In this document: piece after piece, positions 30,001 to 51,000 of the stretch
Layout: every line of letters starts with the position of its first letter
Numbering within the stretch: position 1 is the first letter of the stretch
Source of the DNA: Cyanobacteriota bacterium
Lineage (GTDB): Bacteria; Cyanobacteriota; Cyanobacteriia; PCC-6307; Cyanobiaceae
Reading direction: 5' to 3'
DNA length: 64,000 nt
Assembly (NCBI GenBank): GCA_046052125.1
Contig: JBJOMY010000001.1
Coordinates: 128,001-192,000 of the forward strand
Program-made: the position numbers

Positions 30001-33000
30001 TCGCCACCAACTCTGGACGAGCTTCGCCGGTTGGCTCCGGCGCTGCACAGCCTCACGGCGGCTCATGGTGCCCTAGAGCTGCAGGTGTTCGGCTCAGTGG
30101 TCTGGGGTTCCGCGCGGCCGGGCAGTGACCTGGATCTGCTGAGCGTTCCCGTAGACCTGCTGACCCGCCGAGGTCTGCGGGCTGAGCTGCGTCAACGGAT
30201 TGAAGAGGAGGCCATCCCTCTTGCATGAGCACCTGCTTGGTGCGGCACCAACGGTAGGATTTCGTGCAGAGAGAATTCGATGTACAGCCATGGCTGCAGC
30301 GGTCCATCCACCTGCTCTCAAGCTTGTTGGCAGCAACGGGCAGATCTCACTGGGTAAGCAATACGCCGGCCGCCACGTGCTGGTGGAAGAGAGCGAGCCG
30401 GGTGTCTGGATTGTGCGCACCGCCACCGTGATTCCCGACAATGAGCGCTGGCTCCATGAACCAGGAGCAGCCGCAGACCTTCAGGCTGCGATGAGCTGGT
30501 CTGCAAGCCATCCACCCACCGATGCCGAGGTTGTAGACACCCTCAAGCGCCTGGGTGATGACGCAGCCTGAGCCAACGATCAGGTTGGATCTGAACAACC
30601 CGGTGTTTCAGGAGCAATTGCTGACGCTGCAGAAGCCTGAGCGCCATGCAGCACTCGACACCCTCAACAAAATCCGGCAGCTGACCTGGAATCAGCTCTA
30701 CCGAGATCCAGGGCTCAAGTGGGAAAAGATCACGAGCGTCAGACCGCCCGTTGGGATCGACGCTGTGTATTCCCTGAGGATCAGCCGATCACGTCGCGCT
30801 ACGGCCCACCGTGATGGCGAGTTCATGCGGTTGCTGACCATCGCACCGGATCACGACGCTACCTACGGGAAGAAATAAGCGCACCACCAGGTGTTACATC
30901 AGCACCCCGCCAGAAGCACCCCACCAGCTCAAGACGCACCGCAAGATGTGCCGCGCCGGGCACCTCCAGGATCGCCCCTTGACTGGCGGATATGGCTACT
31001 CATGTTTGGGATATGGCCCCGAGGATCCCGTTGGTCTGGTGGAGTCCTGCTAGGGGGCTGCGGAGTGGATCCTTGCCACCCACGCCGCCAAGGGTGTCTT
31101 AATCCCGAGGCCTTGGATCGATCACCCCTATGGGGAGGAAGAGATCACCCTGCTCGAGGAGGAGCTGTTGCCAGCGATGGCGGTGTTCCTCGCCCGGGTT
31201 GATGCGATTGATCGGGCGATTGAGGCCGATCAGGAGCTGGAGGTGGCTGCCCATCAGGTCCGCTGAGGGCCAGGCCGGCGCTGGCCGGCCTTTTCTGCTG
31301 CTCCCGTTGGGCGCGTTAGGGAATACGGAGCTCGCAGTAATCCCCGGGCGCCAGATCAGCCACCACATCCACCACCTGATCGGCTGCTGCTTTGATCCGC
31401 GGCCAGCTGGTGGTGGAGAGCACCAGGATTGCGATGGTGCGGGATTGCAGATTCTGCTGATAGCGCAGGTTGGTGTCGGTGGTGATCAGCAGTTCGTAGC
31501 CCTGTTGCTCAGCCAGGCGAATCAGATCGCCGTTGGTCACGGTTGACCAGCCCTGCTCGTAAGCGGTGCTGACCTGATGGGCACTCAGCCATCGCCGCAG
31601 AGGAGCTGGTGTCCCCTGATCAAACAGGATGCGCACTACGCCAGGGCCACGGCCGTACTTCTGGCGGCGTGCTCGAGCACTTGGCGAGCCTGTGCTGCGC
31701 TCACCCCAGGGAAGAGTTCTACGAACTCCACCAGGGAAACGCCGTCCTCCAGGTTCTCGAACAGCGCCGCCACGGGAATCCGGGTGCCGCGGAACACCCA
31801 GGCGCCGCTGACGCGCTGCGGATCTTGTTCCACAGCCGGGCAATCGGCCCAATCCAGATGGCTTGGTGTCGGCATGGCAGAAACCCTGTCGCCATGCCAA
31901 CAGTAGGCAGATTCCATGGATCAGGCGGAAGCCGCCTCCTCCAGGAAGCCTTCAATCCAGCGCTGATGGCGGCTAGTGGTGATCAACCCCGCCAGGGATG
32001 GCACGGCATCGGGCACCTGGAAGGCAGCGCGAAAGCCCTTCGAGAAGGCCTCGAGTTGAACAGGGGGCAGTGCCTTGATCTGCTCCTGTAGCCGGGTGAT
32101 GGCAACGGGCTGGAGAGGAGCATCGGCTATCCCAGAACTGGGATGGTTGGCTCCGTTGGCTACGGGTGCCGGGGTGGTGGCAGCAGCTGCGCTGCTCACC
32201 TGGCGTTGCTGCTTGTCGTAGAGCGCCAGGCCAAAGGGATTCCCGAAGGTCATCAGCGCCCGCTTGGTGGCATCGGTTTCGGCTTCCTTGAGCGCCGATT
32301 CATGGGCAAGGCCGAGATCGGCATCGATGCCATGGCCGGCGCCGGAGCCCTCACGGATCAGGGTGCGATTGCCGGCGGTGATCGTGATGCGCACGCGGGC
32401 GATGTAGGTCACGCCCCAGCCGCTTTTGCGATCACGGCCCGCGCCCTTGGCGCCGATCTGGCGCTCGTGTTCGGCCACGCAGCGGCTGATCAAGGTGGAG
32501 CGTTCCCAGCCGTCAAAACCAAAGATGCGGTTGGCTTCTGCAATCACCTGCCAGCCCTCGAGGTAGCTCACGCGGCTGCGGCCCTGTTCCCGTTGGCGCA
32601 CATTGGCGCGATCGAGGGGAGCAGAAAGAGCTGTGATCTGTCGGGCAGTGAATCCAGCTACGGAGCACAAGGCGCCGTCGTCGTTGGGCGTTGTTTGTGG
32701 AGGCGAAGGTGGAGCAGCGGCCTGCTCCTGGCTCAGGGTTTCCCTGAGCAGCTGAAGCGTGGAAGGTGGCCGATTGGATGCGCTGCGTCGAACCACCGGG
32801 GTGGCGTGATTGGTGGCTGTTGCTGTGGATGTGATGGCCATGGTGAGGAAAAAGAGTGTGTGTGGAGTGAGAAGGACGTGGGGCCCGCCACTGCAAAACC
32901 CCCTATCGAGGCCCCCTGTGGGGGCTAGGTGATTGACCAGTGGCGGCGTTTGATGAGGCGTGCACCGGGGACGGCGGTTGAGGAGAGGGAGAAGGCGAGG

Positions 33001-48000: not shown

Positions 48001-51000
48001 TGATGGCTGCGTGGGTAACCACGCGTTCAACCTGAGTGAGCATTGGGGAGCGAATCAAGAGCATGGGTACGCCAACCCCAGCCGCTGCAAGGGCTTCGAT
48101 GCTCTCGATTCGGGATTCACCGATCGAGGCCACCCCGGCATCCACCCAGGTGTGCACGATTTCGGGAAGGCCCAGCGTCGCCTTGCTCACACCCGTCACG
48201 GCAATCCCCTGCAGGGCCAGACGTCCCACAAGGGTTTTGGCGTTGTGGTGCAGTCGCCCGAGGTGGATCTCGAGCCGCGGTGCACTCACGTGCTCAGGAG
48301 TCGTTCAACGCTGAGTTCCGGGAAGGCACGCACCACCATCGCCACCAGGCTTGATCCGGGGCGGCTGACTGCATCGGTGACCGGAATGTCGAGCTCGGCC
48401 TCGTAGAGGGCGATGGCAGCCGTGAGCTCAGCATCATTCATCCCTTCATGGTTGATGGTCAGACCGATCACACGGGTGGGCGCAAAGGCCTCAATGAGCC
48501 GAATTTCACTGGCTGGCGAGGGCATCGGCAGAAAGGGAAAATCACTGAGACAGCGTCGAGCCGGCGCATGCTGCAGGATCACGGCCTGCGGCTGGCAGCC
48601 GCGCAGGATGAAACTTGAGGAGAGATAGGCGGGGTGGCTGAGGGCACCCTGGCCTTCGATCACGATCACGTCGGGCTGCTCACTCTCGTAGGCCTCCACA
48701 ACCGCCGCCTCAACTTCGCCAGAGCAAAACTGCGATGGGATGGCATCCAGGGGAACGCCAAAGCGCCCACCCTGGATCAGCCCTGTCTGGCCTGTGTTCA
48801 CAAGCACCGCCTTGATGCCGTGGGCCTGAAGCGCCTGCACCAGCAGGGTTGCAGTGGTTCGTTTCCCGATCGCTCCATCAGTACCCAGCACAGCGATGCG
48901 CAGGCAGCGCGCCCGGCTGATTGATCCATCGAACAGCTTCAGATCCTTGAGGGGGGCCGGTCGTCGCACATCGCGGATCGTGACCTGATGGCGGGCAGCC
49001 ACTGCCAAGAATTCCGGATCGTCAGTCAGAAATTCGCGCATGCCACTCACGAGATTGAGGCCTGCGGCCATCGCATGTCGCAACACCTGCCGGTCCTCCA
49101 CACGGAAGAGACCATCGGCAGGGGCCATCCCGTAAATGAAGGTGTCTGGAACGGCGCCGGGCAGATCTTTGCCTTCTTCCAGGCTACAGACAATTGGAAT
49201 GCCCCTGAATACGCCATCAAGCACCATGCCGGCATCCATACCGGCGCACTCACTGTCAATCACAGCGCTGATTGTGTAGGCCTCACAGTGACGAACCAAC
49301 CCGTGAGCTGTTTTACCGTCGGGACCAGCGAAATGACCTTCGCAGTAAACAATGGCCGTTGATCGCACGGTTGGAATCAACCGGTGCATGGCGGCGGAAT
49401 TCAGATCAATGATCTGAGTTGGAAATGACAAAAAAGCCAGGCCAATCCCGCAGCACAGTTGTGGCGGCTGGGTGACATGGGTGCCTTCACTCTAGGCAGG
49501 GTTGGCCACAGAAGGGGGTGTCGATCAGTCAGGCGCACGAGGTGAGAACAAGCTGAAGGGCTGATCTCTTGCCCCGCTGAACGACCCCGCCCACGGTTGA
49601 GTGAAGACTGTTGGAGCAGGGGCCTGCAGTCAGCGGTGCTTCTAGATCTGCTGCTGGGGTGGGGTATCTGCCATGGGTGGCGCCTCCCTGGGTTGGTGAT
49701 CACAGATTCGCTCCGGCCAGTGCGCTGAGCAATCCGTTTTTTCACGCATTGCCTTGCCCGCAGAACAGGAGCAGCGTGGTTGGTTTGGCCTTGTTGTTCA
49801 GCGCCAAAGCACCATCCGCGGGGGCTGGGGTGGATGCCATTGCGGGGCGCAGGGTGCCCAGCCGTCAGCCCTGCGTTGACGCCACAACTCAATGGCCTTC
49901 TCACGGCTGAGTCGTTGGCGCCGCTTGAGCAACGGCGCGGTTTGGTCGCTCAGCCACTCACCACTGGTGACCTCGAGCTCCTGCTGCGAACGTCTCCAGA
50001 TCACCGGCTTGAAATGGAGCACCTGGCGGCCGTCACTCAACCAGGCCTCAGCCGGGTTGGAAGGGATTCGCTGCCCTTGATCTTGTTGGGCATTGGGCAC
50101 CCACACGCGTCAGCCCACCTCCGGCGCCCAACCCCGCTGGCGGGTCATGTCGTCGGTCCAGCCCTGGCAGCGGCTCAGGAGGTGATCACCATGAGCAATC
50201 AGGCCCTGATGCAGCTGGCAAGTGAGCAGCGGAATGCACTGCGCTCCGGCGTGGTGCCTGAACCAATGGCAGGTCATGCAGACCTTGCGACTACGACTGG
50301 CTACCAGCACGTCGCCATCGAGGTAAGGCCAGCCCTCGCAGTCGGCTGCGGCCTCAACCGCAGCCGTCACTGAGCGGACTGACCTTGGACGGGAGAGCGC
50401 CATCACCAAACTCCTGCAGTCGTACACCTGTACTAGCAGGGATTGGGTGAGTTGGCTCGGTCGCTGAGCAGCGCCTTTCACAAAAGAACCCCGGGCCATG
50501 GGCGCCCGGGGCCTTTGAGCCAGCGGGTCCTTGGCTGCCCGCTTCTCCACGGTCATGGCTTAGGCGAATGCTCCATGGCAAGGGGTGTCGGAACCCTTTG
50601 AGGCCTCACGCCAACTCCTTTGCTCGCCTTCTTTCAACGCATCACTTCCTTCATCCGTTCGCTGGTCCAGCGGGAGGCCAATTGCTCCTCAGATCTCCGC
50701 GGCCTGCCCTACCAACAGGACCATGCCCTGGCTGCCTTTGAGCAGGGTGACTGGCTCGCTGAACTGGAGCTTCTCCAGCTCGCCAACGCCCTGCAGCGCA
50801 GCGCGATCAGCCGTGGCGGCTATGACGGCCGCGCGTTTGATCTGATGGTCGCCATCGCCGATGCTCTCGAGGCTGATCACGGCTGGAGTTTTGAGCAAGC
50901 CGATGGCTGGCTCGAGCGAATGGGGCTCTGGGACGAGGAGTTCTGAGCGCACCGGATGCCAAATGGAGCGACCATTTCGTCCGGTTTGATCCGCACCCTG

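What a model noticed while it worked through the whole genome (the two positions that open the first line are those of the whole stretch)
31921..50946. Three co-resident replicative integrative elements with private iterons and a diverged initiator
The genome holds three copies of a 19-24 kb core encoding Rad52, Gam-like, SLOG, DnaG and DnaB-like proteins, two sigma factors and an exonuclease. The copies are at C1:159921-178946, C1:712165-736079 and C3:27617-45387, inside tRNA-bound elements with different cargo. Each copy has its own set of direct repeats beside a conserved AT-rich box, and the adjacent 355-aa protein is by far the most diverged core gene. I read these as origin and initiator pairs of different specificity.
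Evidence so far: - Paralogy and gene content. - Iterons: 23 nt x 4.8 at C1:169254-169364, 24 nt x 2.7 at C3:35042-35104, and 22-23-nt units at C1:722917-723008. - Initiator residues 1-100 are 49-58 % identical, against 69-96 % for 12 other core proteins. - ESM Atlas look-alikes at 0.96 are phage HTH_36 proteins. - The protein has 240 homologs, all labelled hypothetical. - Element bounds come from att copies. - The tRNA-Met element spans 33.8 kb, against 1.6-2.3 kb in three same-genus genomes.
(Added by a program. Inside this text positions count along the whole contig: contig position 128,001 is position 1 of the stretch shown here. "Call 12" and the like, gene names such as g00115 and contig names such as C1 are that model's own, and its searches are not shown. 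The text may have been shortened before it was handed on; [...] marks where a part breaks off. The agent that wrote the report below was given it as the finding of a first reader that could run no searches.)

Follow-up and report, generated by a model that had tools for sequence, protein, structure and literature searches.

The report
Private replication origins in cyanobacterial islands
One freshwater picocyanobacterial genome carries three copies of a phage-derived replication module, each probably with its own origin (23-base repeats beside an AT-rich box) and a matching, unannotated initiator protein, working much as the O protein and origin of phage lambda do.

Summary
Three paralogous cores exist (75-90% nt identity). 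Similarity breaks down over the N-terminal part of a 355-aa gene and the intergenic DNA in front of it.

That DNA holds a conserved AT-rich box followed by copy-specific 22-24-nt repeats. In the window these are five direct copies at 41254-41364 and one inverted copy at 41385-41406.

The protein has a winged-helix N-domain, a disordered linker and a helical C-domain with no PDB or BFVD fold match. Across relatives, 50 of 61 loci have at least 3 repeats beside the box, against 4 of 61 shuffles. A DnaB-like helicase gene follows the protein gene in 53 of 57 loci.

The new evidence comes from relatives. In cyanophage P-SS2 and in 7 of 8 distant relatives examined, a 22-24-nt array plus an AT tract lies inside the open frame, between the two domains. 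This is the lambda O / ori-lambda layout. An operator array is unlikely in that position.

I read the feature as an iteron origin with a modular initiator (0.75). The main rival is a repressor with operators (0.15). No DNA binding or replication is shown.

Not reproduced: att repeats for the tRNA-Met island, and a tRNA or integrase beside copy 3.

Verdict: new member of a known kind.

The parts
39990..41057 (-). 355-aa candidate initiator (P0001). It has a winged-helix N-domain (residues 1-100, window 40758-41057), a disordered linker (101-157, window 40587-40757) and a helical C-domain (158-355, window 39993-40586).
   Evidence: ORF. No Pfam, PHROG or NCBIfam family. AF2 model: pLDDT 80-89 over residues 11-100, with the block 21-30 at 60, and under 50 over 102-157. 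Winged-helix matches at Z 7-8.4. C-domain model pLDDT 80.6, with no chain at Z>=5 among 48161.
41205..41252 (.). Conserved AT-rich box (69% A+T in a window that is 38% A+T). It ends in TATAGATG. I take it as the candidate unwinding element and/or promoter core.
   Evidence: Sequence, composition. The box is present in all three copies. The motif CATCTA[TAG]A occurs in 45 of 61 related loci, 115-218 nt upstream of the start codon.
41254..41364 (+). Five direct 23-nt repeats (GTGCAAnnnGCCCTCACC core). These are the candidate iterons of copy 1.
   Evidence: TRF score 124. Spacing is 23, 23, 23. The pattern with <=2 mismatches occurs only in this cluster within the 64-kb window. All 4 exact matches in the genome lie here.
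41385..41406 (-). Sixth repeat copy, inverted. It forms a 22-nt, 95% complementary pair with the last direct copy.
   Evidence: pair I1.
38254..39954 (-). DnaB-like replicative helicase, directly downstream of the initiator gene.
   Evidence: DnaB_C 3.7e-18. phrog_19 4e-37. 34% identical to dnaB of cyanophage P-SS2. Found downstream of the initiator homolog in 53 of 57 loci.
36593..38263 (-). DnaG-type primase (zinc ribbon plus Toprim).
   Evidence: phrog_6444 5.5e-99.
31921..34202 (-). Recombination genes: Rad52 (31921-32841), Gp157/Gam-like (32925-33638) and a SLOG protein (33648-34202).
41477..43354 (+). Divergently transcribed sigma-70-like factor (41477-42451) and a second sigma/LuxR-type HTH protein (42512-43354).
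   Evidence: A sigma gene lies divergent from the initiator gene in 24 of 29 loci with enough upstream DNA.
44485..45906 (+). Metallophosphatase-type exonuclease.
   Evidence: phrog_284 8.9e-54.
52742..54166 (-). Inward-facing integrase-like protein (P0002) beside the tRNA gene. The true start is probably about 28 codons further in.
   Evidence: No Pfam or PDB sequence match. 1252 homologs, several named 'integrase' by JGI, most 436-446 aa long. A 30%-identical paralog sits next to tRNA-Lys beside copy 2.
54263..54336 (-). tRNA-Met(CAT), at the right edge of the island.
20505..31900 (.). Cargo and remnant part of the 33.9-kb island. It holds a fatty-acid desaturase, a PilZ protein, a Kelch protein, a CDF cation-efflux protein, a PIN toxin and a nucleotidyltransferase fragment. 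It also holds a second copy of core-end segments at 23436-24131 and 25448-25902.
   Evidence: Pfam. Internal duplication at 88-92% identity. Flank comparison.

Best explanation
Each of the three cores is a phage-derived replication and recombination module with its own replicon.

Inferred mechanism:
- The 355-aa protein is the initiator.
- Its N-terminal winged helix binds the 22-24-nt repeats (iterons) set in phase beside the AT-rich box.
- Binding opens or marks that box.
- The conserved C-domain then brings in the DnaB-like helicase and DnaG primase encoded just downstream.

Because the N-domain and the iterons differ among the three copies, each initiator should fire only its own origin, so the three elements can share one cell without cross-talk. 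The initiator probably also regulates the divergent promoters through the same sites, as many iteron initiators do.

Shown here: the anatomy, its conservation, the fold of the N-domain, the synteny, and the intragenic arrangement in relatives. Inferred: binding, unwinding, helicase recruitment and specificity.
For: 1. Anatomy in the window. Five direct 23-nt copies and one inverted copy abut a 69% A+T box. The motif clusters nowhere else in the window or the genome.

2. Family trait. Among 61 related loci with at least 400 nt upstream, 50 have >=3 copies beside the box, and 43 have >=2 spacings of 22-24 nt or multiples of these. The shuffled controls give 4 of 61 and 0 of 61. The leader controls give 2 of 53 and 0 of 53.

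3. Specificity module. The three copies carry unrelated repeat sequences. Their N-domains are 48-58% identical, while sigma-1 and sigma-2 of copies 1 and 3 are 91% and 96% identical.
   - Over 25 representative loci, repeat similarity follows N-domain identity (Mantel r 0.56, p 2e-4; partial on C-domain r 0.54).
   - It does not follow C-domain identity (partial r -0.06, p 0.79).
   - All 11 pairs with N-domain identity >=85% keep the same repeats (similarity 0.77-0.92); in 9 of them the C-domain is only 60-69% identical.
   - 8 of 10 pairs with C-domain identity >=80% but N-domain identity <65% have unrelated repeats.

4. Fold. The N-domain is a winged helix (Z 8.4 to 3cta_A with 67 residues aligned at rmsd 1.9; the plasmid initiator 4pta_D is among many hits at Z 7.5). 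Type-specific positions 71, 74 and 77 lie on one face of the predicted recognition helix between invariant residues R70, R73, D75, L76 and L79. Positions 86 and 88 lie on a wing strand.

5. Synteny. A helicase homolog follows on the same strand in 53 of 57 loci. This includes 17 of 17 distant relatives in which the tblastn match covers little or none of the N-domain.

6. Intragenic arrays in relatives.
   - The 305-aa gene directly in front of dnaB and the primase gene in cyanophage P-SS2 is a homolog (hhalign probability 96.7%, E 3.6e-10).
   - It holds a 22-nt x 4.2 array (score 104) at codons 97-127, followed by a 73% A+T tract at codons 135-150.
   - 21 of 24 distant loci hold a tandem array of period 17-26 or 40-50 nt somewhere in the locus.
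   - In 7 of the 8 whose match spans both domains, one open frame runs through a 23-24-nt x 4.9-6.0 array and an AT window that starts 1-8 nt after it.
   - From my own knowledge, not from any call, this is the layout of ori-lambda inside gene O.

7. Weak sequence leads. Of 86 family members, 8, 5, 1 and 3 give sub-threshold hits to PHROGs named 'replication initiation O-like' or 'replication initiation protein'. ESM Atlas look-alikes at 0.96 are phage HTH_36 proteins.
Against: - No binding, unwinding or replication has been measured.
- The wHTH fold is generic, and most top structural matches are transcription regulators.
- No known initiator family is hit at an accepted threshold.
- The C-domain has no fold match, so its helicase-loading role is purely positional.
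- The N-domain/repeat covariation cannot be separated from linkage. In pairs with the same N-domain type, the leader between gene and box is as similar as the repeat block (0.57-0.92 against 0.52-0.81). N-domain, leader and repeats therefore move as one cassette.
- Two pairs break the rule. cp3-L010 and L010-L048 have N-domain identity of 51% but repeat similarity of 0.78-0.81.
- 11 of 61 loci lack >=3 detectable copies.
- In the best DNA run, contig depth over the private origin segment (223) equals that of the chromosomal flank (200-230). No amplification is seen there (contigs only).
- A contig from an RNA library spans the box, the repeats and the start of the sigma gene. The array may therefore also be a transcribed leader.
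Confidence: 0.75

Rival explanations
1. Immunity module. The 355-aa protein is a repressor, and the repeats are its operators in the divergent control region between the replication operon and the sigma-factor operon. Different N-domain and operator types would then make the three co-resident elements heteroimmune, like lambdoid prophages.
For: - The array lies between two divergent operons.
- One copy is inverted.
- The closest structural matches of the N-domain are MarR/MepR, CodY, Crp and ArsR-type regulators.
- An RNA-library contig covers the box, the repeats and the 5' end of the sigma gene.
- Covariation of N-domain and repeats is predicted equally well by this reading.
Against: - In P-SS2 and in 7 of 8 distant relatives the array and AT tract lie in the middle of the coding frame, where a promoter operator makes little sense.
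- 4-8 direct copies at a fixed 22-24-nt phase abutting an AT-rich box is an iteron pattern, not a two-fold symmetric operator pattern.
- The gene is the first gene of the helicase-primase operon in 53 of 57 loci. From general knowledge of phages, a maintenance repressor is normally transcribed apart from the genes it silences.
- No sigma-70-like promoter was found in window 40900-41700. This is a weak argument, because the element has its own sigma factors.
Confidence: 0.15
2. The repeats are a centromere-like partition site or a packaging (pac/terS) site, bound by the wHTH protein. They are not an origin.
For: Phased direct repeats bound by small wHTH or RHH proteins are also typical of plasmid centromeres (general knowledge). 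TubR appears among the weak Foldseek rows.
Against: - No ParA/ParM/TubZ-type or terminase family was hit among the 25 ORFs of window 31636-54166 scanned.
- The strict partner is a helicase gene.
- An AT-rich tract always follows the array.
Confidence: 0.04
3. The repeats have no function. They are tandem duplications in fast-evolving spacer DNA, next to a gene whose N-terminus is under relaxed constraint.
For: Copy 2's repeats are weak; TRF finds none. The leader diverges as fast as the repeats.
Against: - The phase (22-24 nt), the position (abutting the box) and the copy number recur with unrelated sequences in 50 of 61 loci, against 4 of 61 shuffles.
- Copy 2 still shows a periodicity that 0 of 2000 shuffles reach.
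- The N-domain keeps 20 or more invariant or near-invariant positions and a confident fold.
Confidence: 0.03

Closest known systems
Phage lambda O protein and ori-lambda, with the type-specific O/ori pairs of lambdoid phages (textbook knowledge, recalled; no paper read here)
   Same: - An N-terminal DNA-binding domain that is type-specific, then a linker, then a conserved C-domain that hands over to the helicase system.
- About four phased repeats followed by an AT-rich tract.
- In P-SS2 and the distant relatives the origin lies inside the linker-coding part of the initiator gene.
   Different: - No significant sequence match. There are only sub-threshold 'O-like' PHROG hits in 14 of 86 members.
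- There is no separate P-like loader gene. The helicase is element-encoded, not the host's DnaB.
- In the three copies of this genome the array lies upstream of the gene, not inside it.
PLE satellites of Vibrio cholerae: RepA and ori as a modular replicon (PMC8263062; passages of the sections 'PLE replicons are modular' and 'Odn requires iterons' read)
   Same: - An integrative element whose initiator's DNA-binding N-domain co-varies with the iterons, while the C-domain stays conserved.
- Module swapping is inferred from mosaic alleles.
- The ori lies in a noncoding region.
   Different: - PLE RepA has a RepA_N domain, which is not hit here.
- PLE has three ~30-bp semi-palindromic iterons, against 4-8 repeats of 22-24 nt here.
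- PLE specificity was proven by origin swaps. Here it is inferred.
- In this genome three types co-reside in one cell.
Tycheposons of Prochlorococcus (bioRxiv 10.1101/2020.12.28.424599; passages found with search terms read)
   Same: [quoted passage not shown]
- Replication genes (primase, DnaB-type helicase) plus niche-related cargo such as cation efflux, a desaturase and transporters.
   Different: - The core here is about 19 kb and includes Rad52, Gam, an exonuclease and two sigma factors. The paper describes a replication module of about 2-4 kb.
- No partial-tRNA att repeat was found.
- The preprint text has 0 occurrences of 'iteron', 'Rad52' or 'sigma'.
- Whether the integrase belongs to the tycheposon lineage was not tested. 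Supplements were not seen.
Cyanosiphovirus P-SS2 early region (GQ334450; PMC2784084, passages read)
   Same: - An initiator homolog followed by dnaB and a primase gene, with an integrase, a recombinase, a sigma factor and an exonuclease nearby.
- The helicase is 34% identical.
   Different: - P-SS2 is a complete phage with structural genes. Of the ORFs scanned in and around the island, none hit a capsid or terminase family.
- P-SS2's array is intragenic.
- The paper's text has 0 occurrences of 'iteron' or 'origin of replication'.
Iteron plasmids (for example R6K, pPS10, pSC101, RK2; recalled) and the pSK41-type RepA (4pta)
   Same: Direct repeats at about 22-bp phase next to an AT-rich region, a winged-helix initiator, and an inverted copy that could serve autoregulation.
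   Different: - Only one winged helix is predicted, and the C-domain is not a second WH domain.
- No Rep_3 or RepA family hit.
- The replicon is integrated and brings its own helicase and primase.

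Membership tests
Iteron-type origin with cognate initiator (functional class) | Three or more direct repeats in helical phase (about 17-24 bp) next to an AT-rich stretch | tested here: met
   Copy 1 has 5 direct copies and 1 inverted copy at 23-nt spacing, abutting a 69% A+T box. The pattern holds in 50 of 61 relatives against 4 of 61 shuffles.
Iteron-type origin with cognate initiator (functional class) | Adjacent gene for a sequence-specific DNA-binding protein whose DNA-binding part co-varies with the repeats | tested here: met
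   Winged-helix N-domain. Partial Mantel r 0.54, p 2e-4. Linkage is not excluded.
Iteron-type origin with cognate initiator (functional class) | The initiator binds the repeats, and the locus supports replication in cis | not testable with these tools
   Only assembled contigs of public runs were available. Depth over the origin segment (223) is about equal to that of the flank (200-230) in run X1.
Lambda O-like initiators (PHROG 'replication initiation O-like' families) | Significant profile match | tested here: not met
   P0001 itself hits 0 PHROGs at E<=0.001 and at E<=0.5. Among 86 members, 8, 5 and 1 hit phrog_391, phrog_678 and phrog_345, with a best E of 0.0017. These are leads only.
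Lambda O-like initiators (PHROG 'replication initiation O-like' families) | Origin (iterons plus AT tract) embedded in the linker-coding part of the gene | tested here: inconclusive
   Met in the P-SS2 homolog and in 7 of 8 distant relatives. Not met in the three copies of this genome, where the array is upstream.
Plasmid Rep_3 / RepA (two winged helices) and RepA_N initiators | Pfam family match, or a WH1-WH2 double winged-helix fold | tested here: not met
   No such Pfam hit in P0001, nor in more than 1 of 86 members (RP-C N-terminal domain, 1 member, E 0.14). One WH domain is predicted. The fold search of the C-domain gave no chain at Z>=5, which is inconclusive for its fold.
Tycheposon | Site-specific integrase, inward-facing at one end, next to a full-length tRNA gene | tested here: met
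   Met for copies 1 and 2. P0002 lies beside tRNA-Met and a 30%-identical paralog lies beside tRNA-Lys. Homologs are named integrase by JGI. No Pfam hit. Copy 3 has no tRNA or integrase relative within 40 kb.
Tycheposon | Partial tRNA (att) repeat at the far end of the element | tested here: not met
   No direct repeat of >=11 nt of window 54150-54345 within 20300-52700, except one 12-mer. blastn-short found none either.
Tycheposon | Integrase and hallmark genes belong to the published tycheposon profiles | not tested
   The profiles are in supplements that I did not see.
Tycheposon | Small replication module plus cargo | tested here: inconclusive
   Cargo is present. The conserved core is about 19 kb and phage-like, against the 2-4 kb described in the preprint.
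PICI-type phage satellite | Capsid, small-terminase or phage-interference genes | tested here: not met
   None of the 25 ORFs of window 31636-54166, nor the 24 ORFs of 16038-31546 and 54391-57784, hit such a family. Unannotated small ORFs remain.

The most novel reading that the evidence does not exclude
The 355-aa protein founds an undescribed initiator family of picocyanobacterial mobile elements and cyanosiphoviruses.
- Its C-domain would be a new helicase-recruiting fold.
- Its origin has moved during evolution between the inside of the gene (lambda-like) and the upstream spacer.
- The N-domain and iteron cassettes would be swapped among elements to create orthogonal replicons, so that several elements using near-identical helicases and primases can coexist and be induced independently in one cell.

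The cassette would be a ready-made set of compatible native replicons for organisms that, to my recollection, have few replicating vectors.
Probability: 0.35. Interest if true: 0.7.

Novelty: new member of a known kind. Interest (0 to 1): 0.55.

Why it matters
If the reading is right, it does four things.

- It names the origin and the initiator of a widespread class of integrative elements of freshwater and estuarine picocyanobacteria (Vulcanococcus, Cyanobium, Synechococcus 5.2), and of cyanophage P-SS2. The gene is 'hypothetical' in every record I saw, and no origin is mentioned in either paper I searched.
- It gives a simple mechanism for several near-identical replicative elements sharing one genome.
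- It shows an origin that has moved between the inside and the outside of its initiator gene within a single protein family.
- It offers candidate parts (array, box and a three-gene operon, in at least three specificities) for replicating vectors in picocyanobacteria. That such tools are scarce there is my recollection, not a result of any call.

Tried and rejected
- Complex of helicase and C-domain. Two jobs failed. The third gave 'no answer', score 0.00. This says nothing either way.
- Fold of the C-domain. There was no match in PDB by VIA-align (best Z 4.2) or by Foldseek (no E<=0.001), and none in BFVD (best E 0.053). The SPP1 G39P loader (Z 3.5) and a DnaD-like domain (Z 3.2) appear in the noise, as does a T4 gp59 cluster in the Atlas (0.91). 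I do not use any of these.
- Profile search of PDB sequences. Only winged-helix regulators appeared, at E 0.15-1.9.
- P0001 against 50,697 phage records by tblastn: no match.
- IMG/VR scan with the family patterns: no relative.
- S-CBS2 gp057 and S-CRES3 gp3, the genes in front of their helicase genes, are not detectably homologous (hhalign probability 1.2% and 0.1%). Both do have a tandem array just upstream (17 nt x 3.1 and 24 nt x 3.0).
- Rfam: nothing in the intergenic region except sub-threshold miRNA hairpin models caused by the inverted repeat.
- Promoter scan: 0 sites.
- att search: nothing.
- Leader as a neutral control. It co-varies as much as the repeats, so selection on the repeats could not be shown this way.
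- Upstream-repeat detector on distant relatives. Only 2 of 15 showed phased repeats, because longest-ORF starts are unreliable in this GC-rich DNA and the arrays are in fact intragenic. I replaced this with TRF.
- Co-residence test. All within-genome pairs differ (N-domain identity <=58% in 4 pairs), but only 3.7% of 300 random representative pairs reach >=85%. Exclusion is therefore not demonstrated.
- Reads. Only contigs were available. They gave no start sites and no copy-number profile, and I could assign no excision or circle junction. Parts without RNA cover mean nothing.
- One alignment call failed because two of my references were out of frame. I dropped both and repeated the call.

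Full report
WHERE THE WINDOW LIES

The window is C1:128001-192000 of a 2.64-Mb, 10-contig genome with 64-67% G+C. Relatives of its genes come from Vulcanococcus, Cyanobium and Synechococcus subcluster 5.2.

THE OBSERVATION: THREE CORES

blastn of window 20000-58000 against the genome shows two further copies of the core.
- Copy 2 is C1:712162-736080, in blocks of 75-82% identity.
- Copy 3 is C3:27614-45385, in blocks of 83-90% identity.

Similarity stops over one stretch. Window 40618-41441 has no match in copy 2. Window 39960-41441 has only a 68% match over 40200-40667 in copy 3.

This gap covers the 5' part of a 355-aa ORF on the minus strand (39990-41057) and the 420-nt spacer in front of it. 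tblastn finds exactly three copies of that protein in the genome, at 100%, 66% and 50% identity.

- Rad52
- Gp157/Gam-like
- SLOG
- DnaG primase
- DnaB-like helicase
- a sigma-70 factor
- a second sigma/LuxR-type HTH protein
- an exonuclease

THE SPACER

Going away from the gene start at 41057, the spacer holds the following elements in order:
- a 150-nt leader;
- a 48-nt stretch that is 69% A+T, against 38% for the window. It ends in TATAGATG;
- immediately after it, five direct 23-nt repeats (TRF 41254-41364, 4.8 copies, score 124, the best of 24 rows in the window);
- 21 nt further on, a sixth copy in inverted orientation (41385-41406, 95% complementary to the last direct copy).

With up to 2 mismatches the repeat core occurs only in this cluster in the 64-kb window. 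Matches with 3 mismatches elsewhere in the window number 6, against about 4 matches of any kind expected by chance. All 4 exact matches in the whole genome lie in this cluster.

Copies 2 and 3 carry the same box (TCTCTAA.. / TATAGATGGTG) followed by unrelated repeats.
- Copy 2 escapes TRF. It still has an autocorrelation of 0.47 at lags 22 and 45, which 0 of 2000 shuffles reach.

DIVERGENCE OF THE PROTEIN AMONG THE COPIES

| Part | Identity among the three copies |
|---|---|
| Residues 1-100 | 48-58% |
| Linker | 22-37% |
| C-domain | 83% (copies 1 and 2), 60% (either against copy 3) |
| Rad52, Gam, SLOG, primase, helicase, both sigma factors, exonuclease, orf168 | 70-96% |

Sigma-1 and sigma-2 of copies 1 and 3 are 91% and 96% identical although the repeats are unrelated. 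The N-domain of the 355-aa protein is therefore the only annotated core product whose divergence matches that of the repeats.

THE ISLAND

The flanking response-regulator gene (19740-20504) and M23-peptidase gene (54391-55524) are 33.9 kb apart here. They are 1.1-2.2 kb apart in G022, G023 and G024, three of the 25 same-genus genomes searched.

An inward-facing 474-aa protein lies next to tRNA-Met.
- It has no Pfam or PDB sequence match.
- It has 1252 homologs, several named 'integrase' by JGI.
- A 30%-identical paralog lies beside tRNA-Lys at copy 2.

- I found no att repeat of 11 nt or more for the tRNA-Met island.
- I found no tRNA or related integrase within 40 kb around copy 3.

Cargo differs among the copies:

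| Copy | Cargo |
|---|---|
| 1 | Desaturase, Kelch protein, CDF efflux protein, alanine-racemase-like protein, DUF1611 |
| 2 | P-type ATPase, SBF transporter |
| 3 | Na/H exchanger, LigB, pirin |

THE PROTEIN

There is no Pfam, PHROG or NCBIfam family.
- The word-indexed search gives 240 homologs, and every name shown is 'hypothetical'.
- The exhaustive search gives 65 cluster representatives.
- Many of the more distant representatives are 400-600 aa long and match only residues ~115-351. The protein is therefore modular.
- Of 20 such representatives scanned, 18 hit no Pfam family.

An AlphaFold model built with 86 sequences shows three parts:
- a winged helix at residues 5-100, mostly at pLDDT 80-89 (the block 21-30 is at 60);
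- a disordered stretch at 102-157;
- a helical C-domain.

The N-domain matches many winged-helix proteins. The best is Z 8.4, with 67 residues aligned at rmsd 1.9. The plasmid initiator 4pta_D scores Z 7.5 among regulators with similar scores. By Foldseek, no match reaches E 0.001.

The C-domain modelled alone has pLDDT 80.6. It has no chain at Z>=5 among 48161. It has no Foldseek match in PDB or BFVD at E<=0.001.

IS THE LAYOUT A FAMILY TRAIT?

I fetched 28 loci from species genomes and 66 from metagenomes. My own three copies plus 58 of these loci have at least 400 nt upstream of the start codon, which gives 61 loci.

| Test set | >=3 copies of an 18-mer (>=13 of 18) in the 190 nt beside the most AT-rich 30-mer | >=2 spacings of 22-24 nt or multiples |
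|---|---|---|
| 61 loci | 50 of 61 | 43 of 61 |
| Shuffles of the same regions | 4 of 61 | 0 of 61 |
| Leader between box and start codon | 2 of 53 | 0 of 53 |

The motif CATCTA[TAG]A lies 115-218 nt upstream of the start codon in 45 of 61 loci. The repeat sequences fall into at least 11 types.

COVARIATION

The test used 25 representative loci. These have N-domains under 97% identical to each other, at least 3 repeat copies, and a full C-domain.
- Repeat similarity correlates with N-domain identity (Mantel r 0.56, p 2e-4).
- The correlation remains when C-domain identity is controlled (partial r 0.54, p 2e-4).
- C-domain identity adds nothing (partial r -0.06, p 0.79).

Natural mosaics say the same.
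- All 11 pairs with N-domain identity >=85% share their repeats (similarity 0.77-0.92). In 9 of these pairs the C-domain is only 60-69% identical.
- 8 of 10 pairs with C-domain identity >=80% but N-domain identity <65% have unrelated repeats (0.50-0.60).
- The two exceptions are cp3-L010 and L010-L048. Both pairs share a GCACCCnnTGCMTC core.

There is one result against over-reading this. In pairs with the same N-domain type, the leader is as similar as the repeat block. N-domain, leader and repeats therefore travel as one cassette, and linkage alone could produce the correlation.

Positions that are constant within a repeat type but differ between types include 71, 74 and 77. These form one face of the predicted recognition helix, and they lie between invariant R70, R73, D75, L76 and L79. 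Positions 86 and 88 on a wing strand behave the same way. The types are also clades, so this is suggestive only.

SYNTENY

A homolog of the DnaB-like helicase starts within 1200 nt downstream, on the same strand, in 53 of 57 loci with enough sequence. This includes 17 of 17 distant relatives in which the tblastn match covers little or none of the N-domain. The four misses are L019, L060, L068 and L069, where the match or the open frame is truncated.

A sigma-factor gene lies divergent upstream in 24 of 29 loci.

THE DECISIVE COMPARISON: P-SS2 AND THE DISTANT RELATIVES

The helicase has relatives in cyanosiphoviruses: P-SS2, S-CBS2 and S-CRES1-3 (8 records).

In P-SS2, the 305-aa 'hypothetical protein' directly in front of dnaB and the primase gene is a homolog of the family. 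hhalign gives probability 96.7%, E 3.6e-10, over 208 columns covering the N-domain and the start of the C-domain.

Inside that gene there are two features:
- four 22-23-nt repeats at codons 97-127 (TRF score 104);
- a 73% A+T tract at codons 135-150.

The distant metagenomic and genomic relatives behave the same way.
- 21 of 24 loci hold a tandem array of period 17-26 or 40-50 nt somewhere in the locus.
- In the 8 loci whose match spans both domains, a 23-24-nt x 4.9-6.0 array lies at codons ~80-137.
- In 7 of these 8 the frame is open from the match start to the match end. L087 has one stop.
- A window with 23-24 A/T of 30 starts 1-8 nt after the array.

A period of 22-24 nt is not a multiple of three, so the repeat is a feature of the DNA and not of the protein.

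From my own knowledge, not from any call, iterons followed by an AT-rich tract inside the linker-coding part of the initiator gene is the arrangement of ori-lambda in gene O. SPP1 oriL in gene 38 is similar. A promoter operator is not expected in such a place.

This is why I put the origin reading well above the repressor reading. In the close subfamily, including the three copies here, the same array-plus-box unit sits upstream of the gene instead.

WEAK LEADS

- Of 86 family members, 8, 5, 1 and 3 give sub-threshold hits to PHROGs named 'replication initiation O-like' or 'replication initiation protein' (best E 0.0017). For comparison, 12 hit an unnamed PHROG and 9 hit a tail-fibre PHROG.
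- ESM Atlas look-alikes of the whole protein, at 0.96, are phage HTH_36 clusters.

PUBLIC RUNS

Only assembled contigs were available.

In the best DNA holder, X1:
- the private origin segment (40132-41496) is an exact contig at depth 223;
- the integrase-tRNA-flank contig is at depth 200;
- the flank is at depth 230;
- the shared core bins are at depth 540-680, as expected for three collapsed copies.

The element is therefore integrated and at single copy in that sample.

RNA-library contigs match two parts:
- the N-domain coding part (318 nt with 0 differences in X19, and 338 nt with 5 differences in X21);
- at 92% identity, the box, all the repeats and the start of the sigma gene (X21).

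The region may be transcribed. DNA carry-over cannot be excluded.

COMPARISON WITH WHAT IS KNOWN

The mechanism is that of iteron replicons with a modular initiator.
- Lambdoid O/ori types are one example (recalled).
- PLE RepA/ori modules are another. There the N-domain co-varies with the iterons, the C-domain is conserved, and cognate specificity was shown by swaps (PMC8263062, passages read).

The family is not a member of the O, Rep_3 or RepA_N families by any accepted threshold.

The elements resemble tycheposons in having a tRNA-adjacent inward-facing integrase, replication genes and cargo. They differ in three respects.
- The core is about 19 kb and resembles the early region of P-SS2.
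- No att repeat was found.
- Integrase lineage membership is untested.

Literature searches:
- The tycheposon preprint text has 0 occurrences of 'iteron'.
- The P-SS2 paper has 0 occurrences of 'iteron' or 'origin of replication'.
- 'iterons' with 'cyanophage' returned only the PLE paper.
- 'iteron' with 'Synechococcus' returned 6 papers, none on this subject by title.
- The 10 papers listed for 'iteron' with picocyanobacterial names had 0 occurrences of 'iteron'.

These searches cover only the held open-access library. Supplements were not seen.

VERDICT

I file the feature as a new member of a known kind: an unannotated initiator family with its iteron origins, present in three specificities in one genome. 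Interest is moderate, at 0.55.

Noticed in passing
window 49280-49943 (core about 49587-49644); also window 23589-24131, C3:43947-44485 and C4:331714-331918: In two metatranscriptome runs from different studies, contig depth in this bin is 2620 and 1721, against 0-12 elsewhere on the stretch. Loose ends bracket a ~58-nt core. There is no Rfam hit and no unusual fold energy. It could be an abundant small RNA carried at the end of the core, or a match to another organism's abundant RNA.
   Followed up: partly
window 23436-24131 and 25448-25902, against 49512-50055 and 50110-50560: The island holds a second copy (88-92% identity) of the segments that end the core. This suggests a remnant of an earlier element in tandem. 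It may explain why no att repeat is found at the far end of the island.
   Followed up: no
C1:722999-726680 (L102:2999-6680): In copy 2, a 935-aa P-type cation ATPase, a DUF433 gene and a 97-aa ORF with no family are inserted between the repeat array and the sigma-factor gene. The spacer next to the putative origin therefore accepts cargo.
   Followed up: partly
Just upstream of the initiator start codon in copies 2 and 3 and most relatives (for example C1:722735-722770; L008, L010, L011): A conserved TAGCCTCC motif is followed by the hairpin CAGGAGCAGGTCCTCCTG. The hairpin would pair a Shine-Dalgarno-like AGGAG with CTCCT. It may control translation of the initiator.
   Followed up: no
window 41441-41520 (hairpin 41468-41511): The ~80 nt in front of and over the annotated GTG start of the sigma gene are conserved in copies 2 and 3 (nucleotide matches resume at 41441). 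They contain a GGCGCAAC...GTTGCGCC stem. This may be a leader structure, and the true start codon may be the ATG at 41519.
   Followed up: no
C1:615140-629915 and C3:109007-113008 (next to tRNA-Pro at C3:113228-113301): There are further partial relatives of the Rad52/SLOG end and of other core segments (68-95% nt identity) without a copy of the 355-aa gene. They are probably decayed or different elements.
   Followed up: no
L104:2325-2376 (S-CBS2) and L105:2341-2411 (S-CRES3): Both cyanosiphoviruses have a tandem array (17 nt x 3.1 and 24 nt x 3.0) in the divergent spacer just upstream of the gene that precedes their helicase gene. That gene is not detectably homologous to the family here.
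   Followed up: partly
L005, L017, L020 (records CALRQW02..., CALRWB02...): Records titled as MAGs of Asaia bogorensis and Chitinophaga pinensis hold typical picocyanobacterial copies of this locus, up to 89% protein identity. The titles look like mislabelled bins.
   Followed up: no
window 29084-29727 and 29989-30228: A PIN-domain toxin gene has a small upstream partner ORF, and there is a nucleotidyltransferase fragment. These are toxin-antitoxin-like cargo beside the core.
   Followed up: no
L035 (Ga0315899_10059725): The helicase and primase matches lie on the opposite strand and overlap the initiator gene position. This is probably an assembly fold-back. The locus also lacked the box and repeats.
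   Followed up: no
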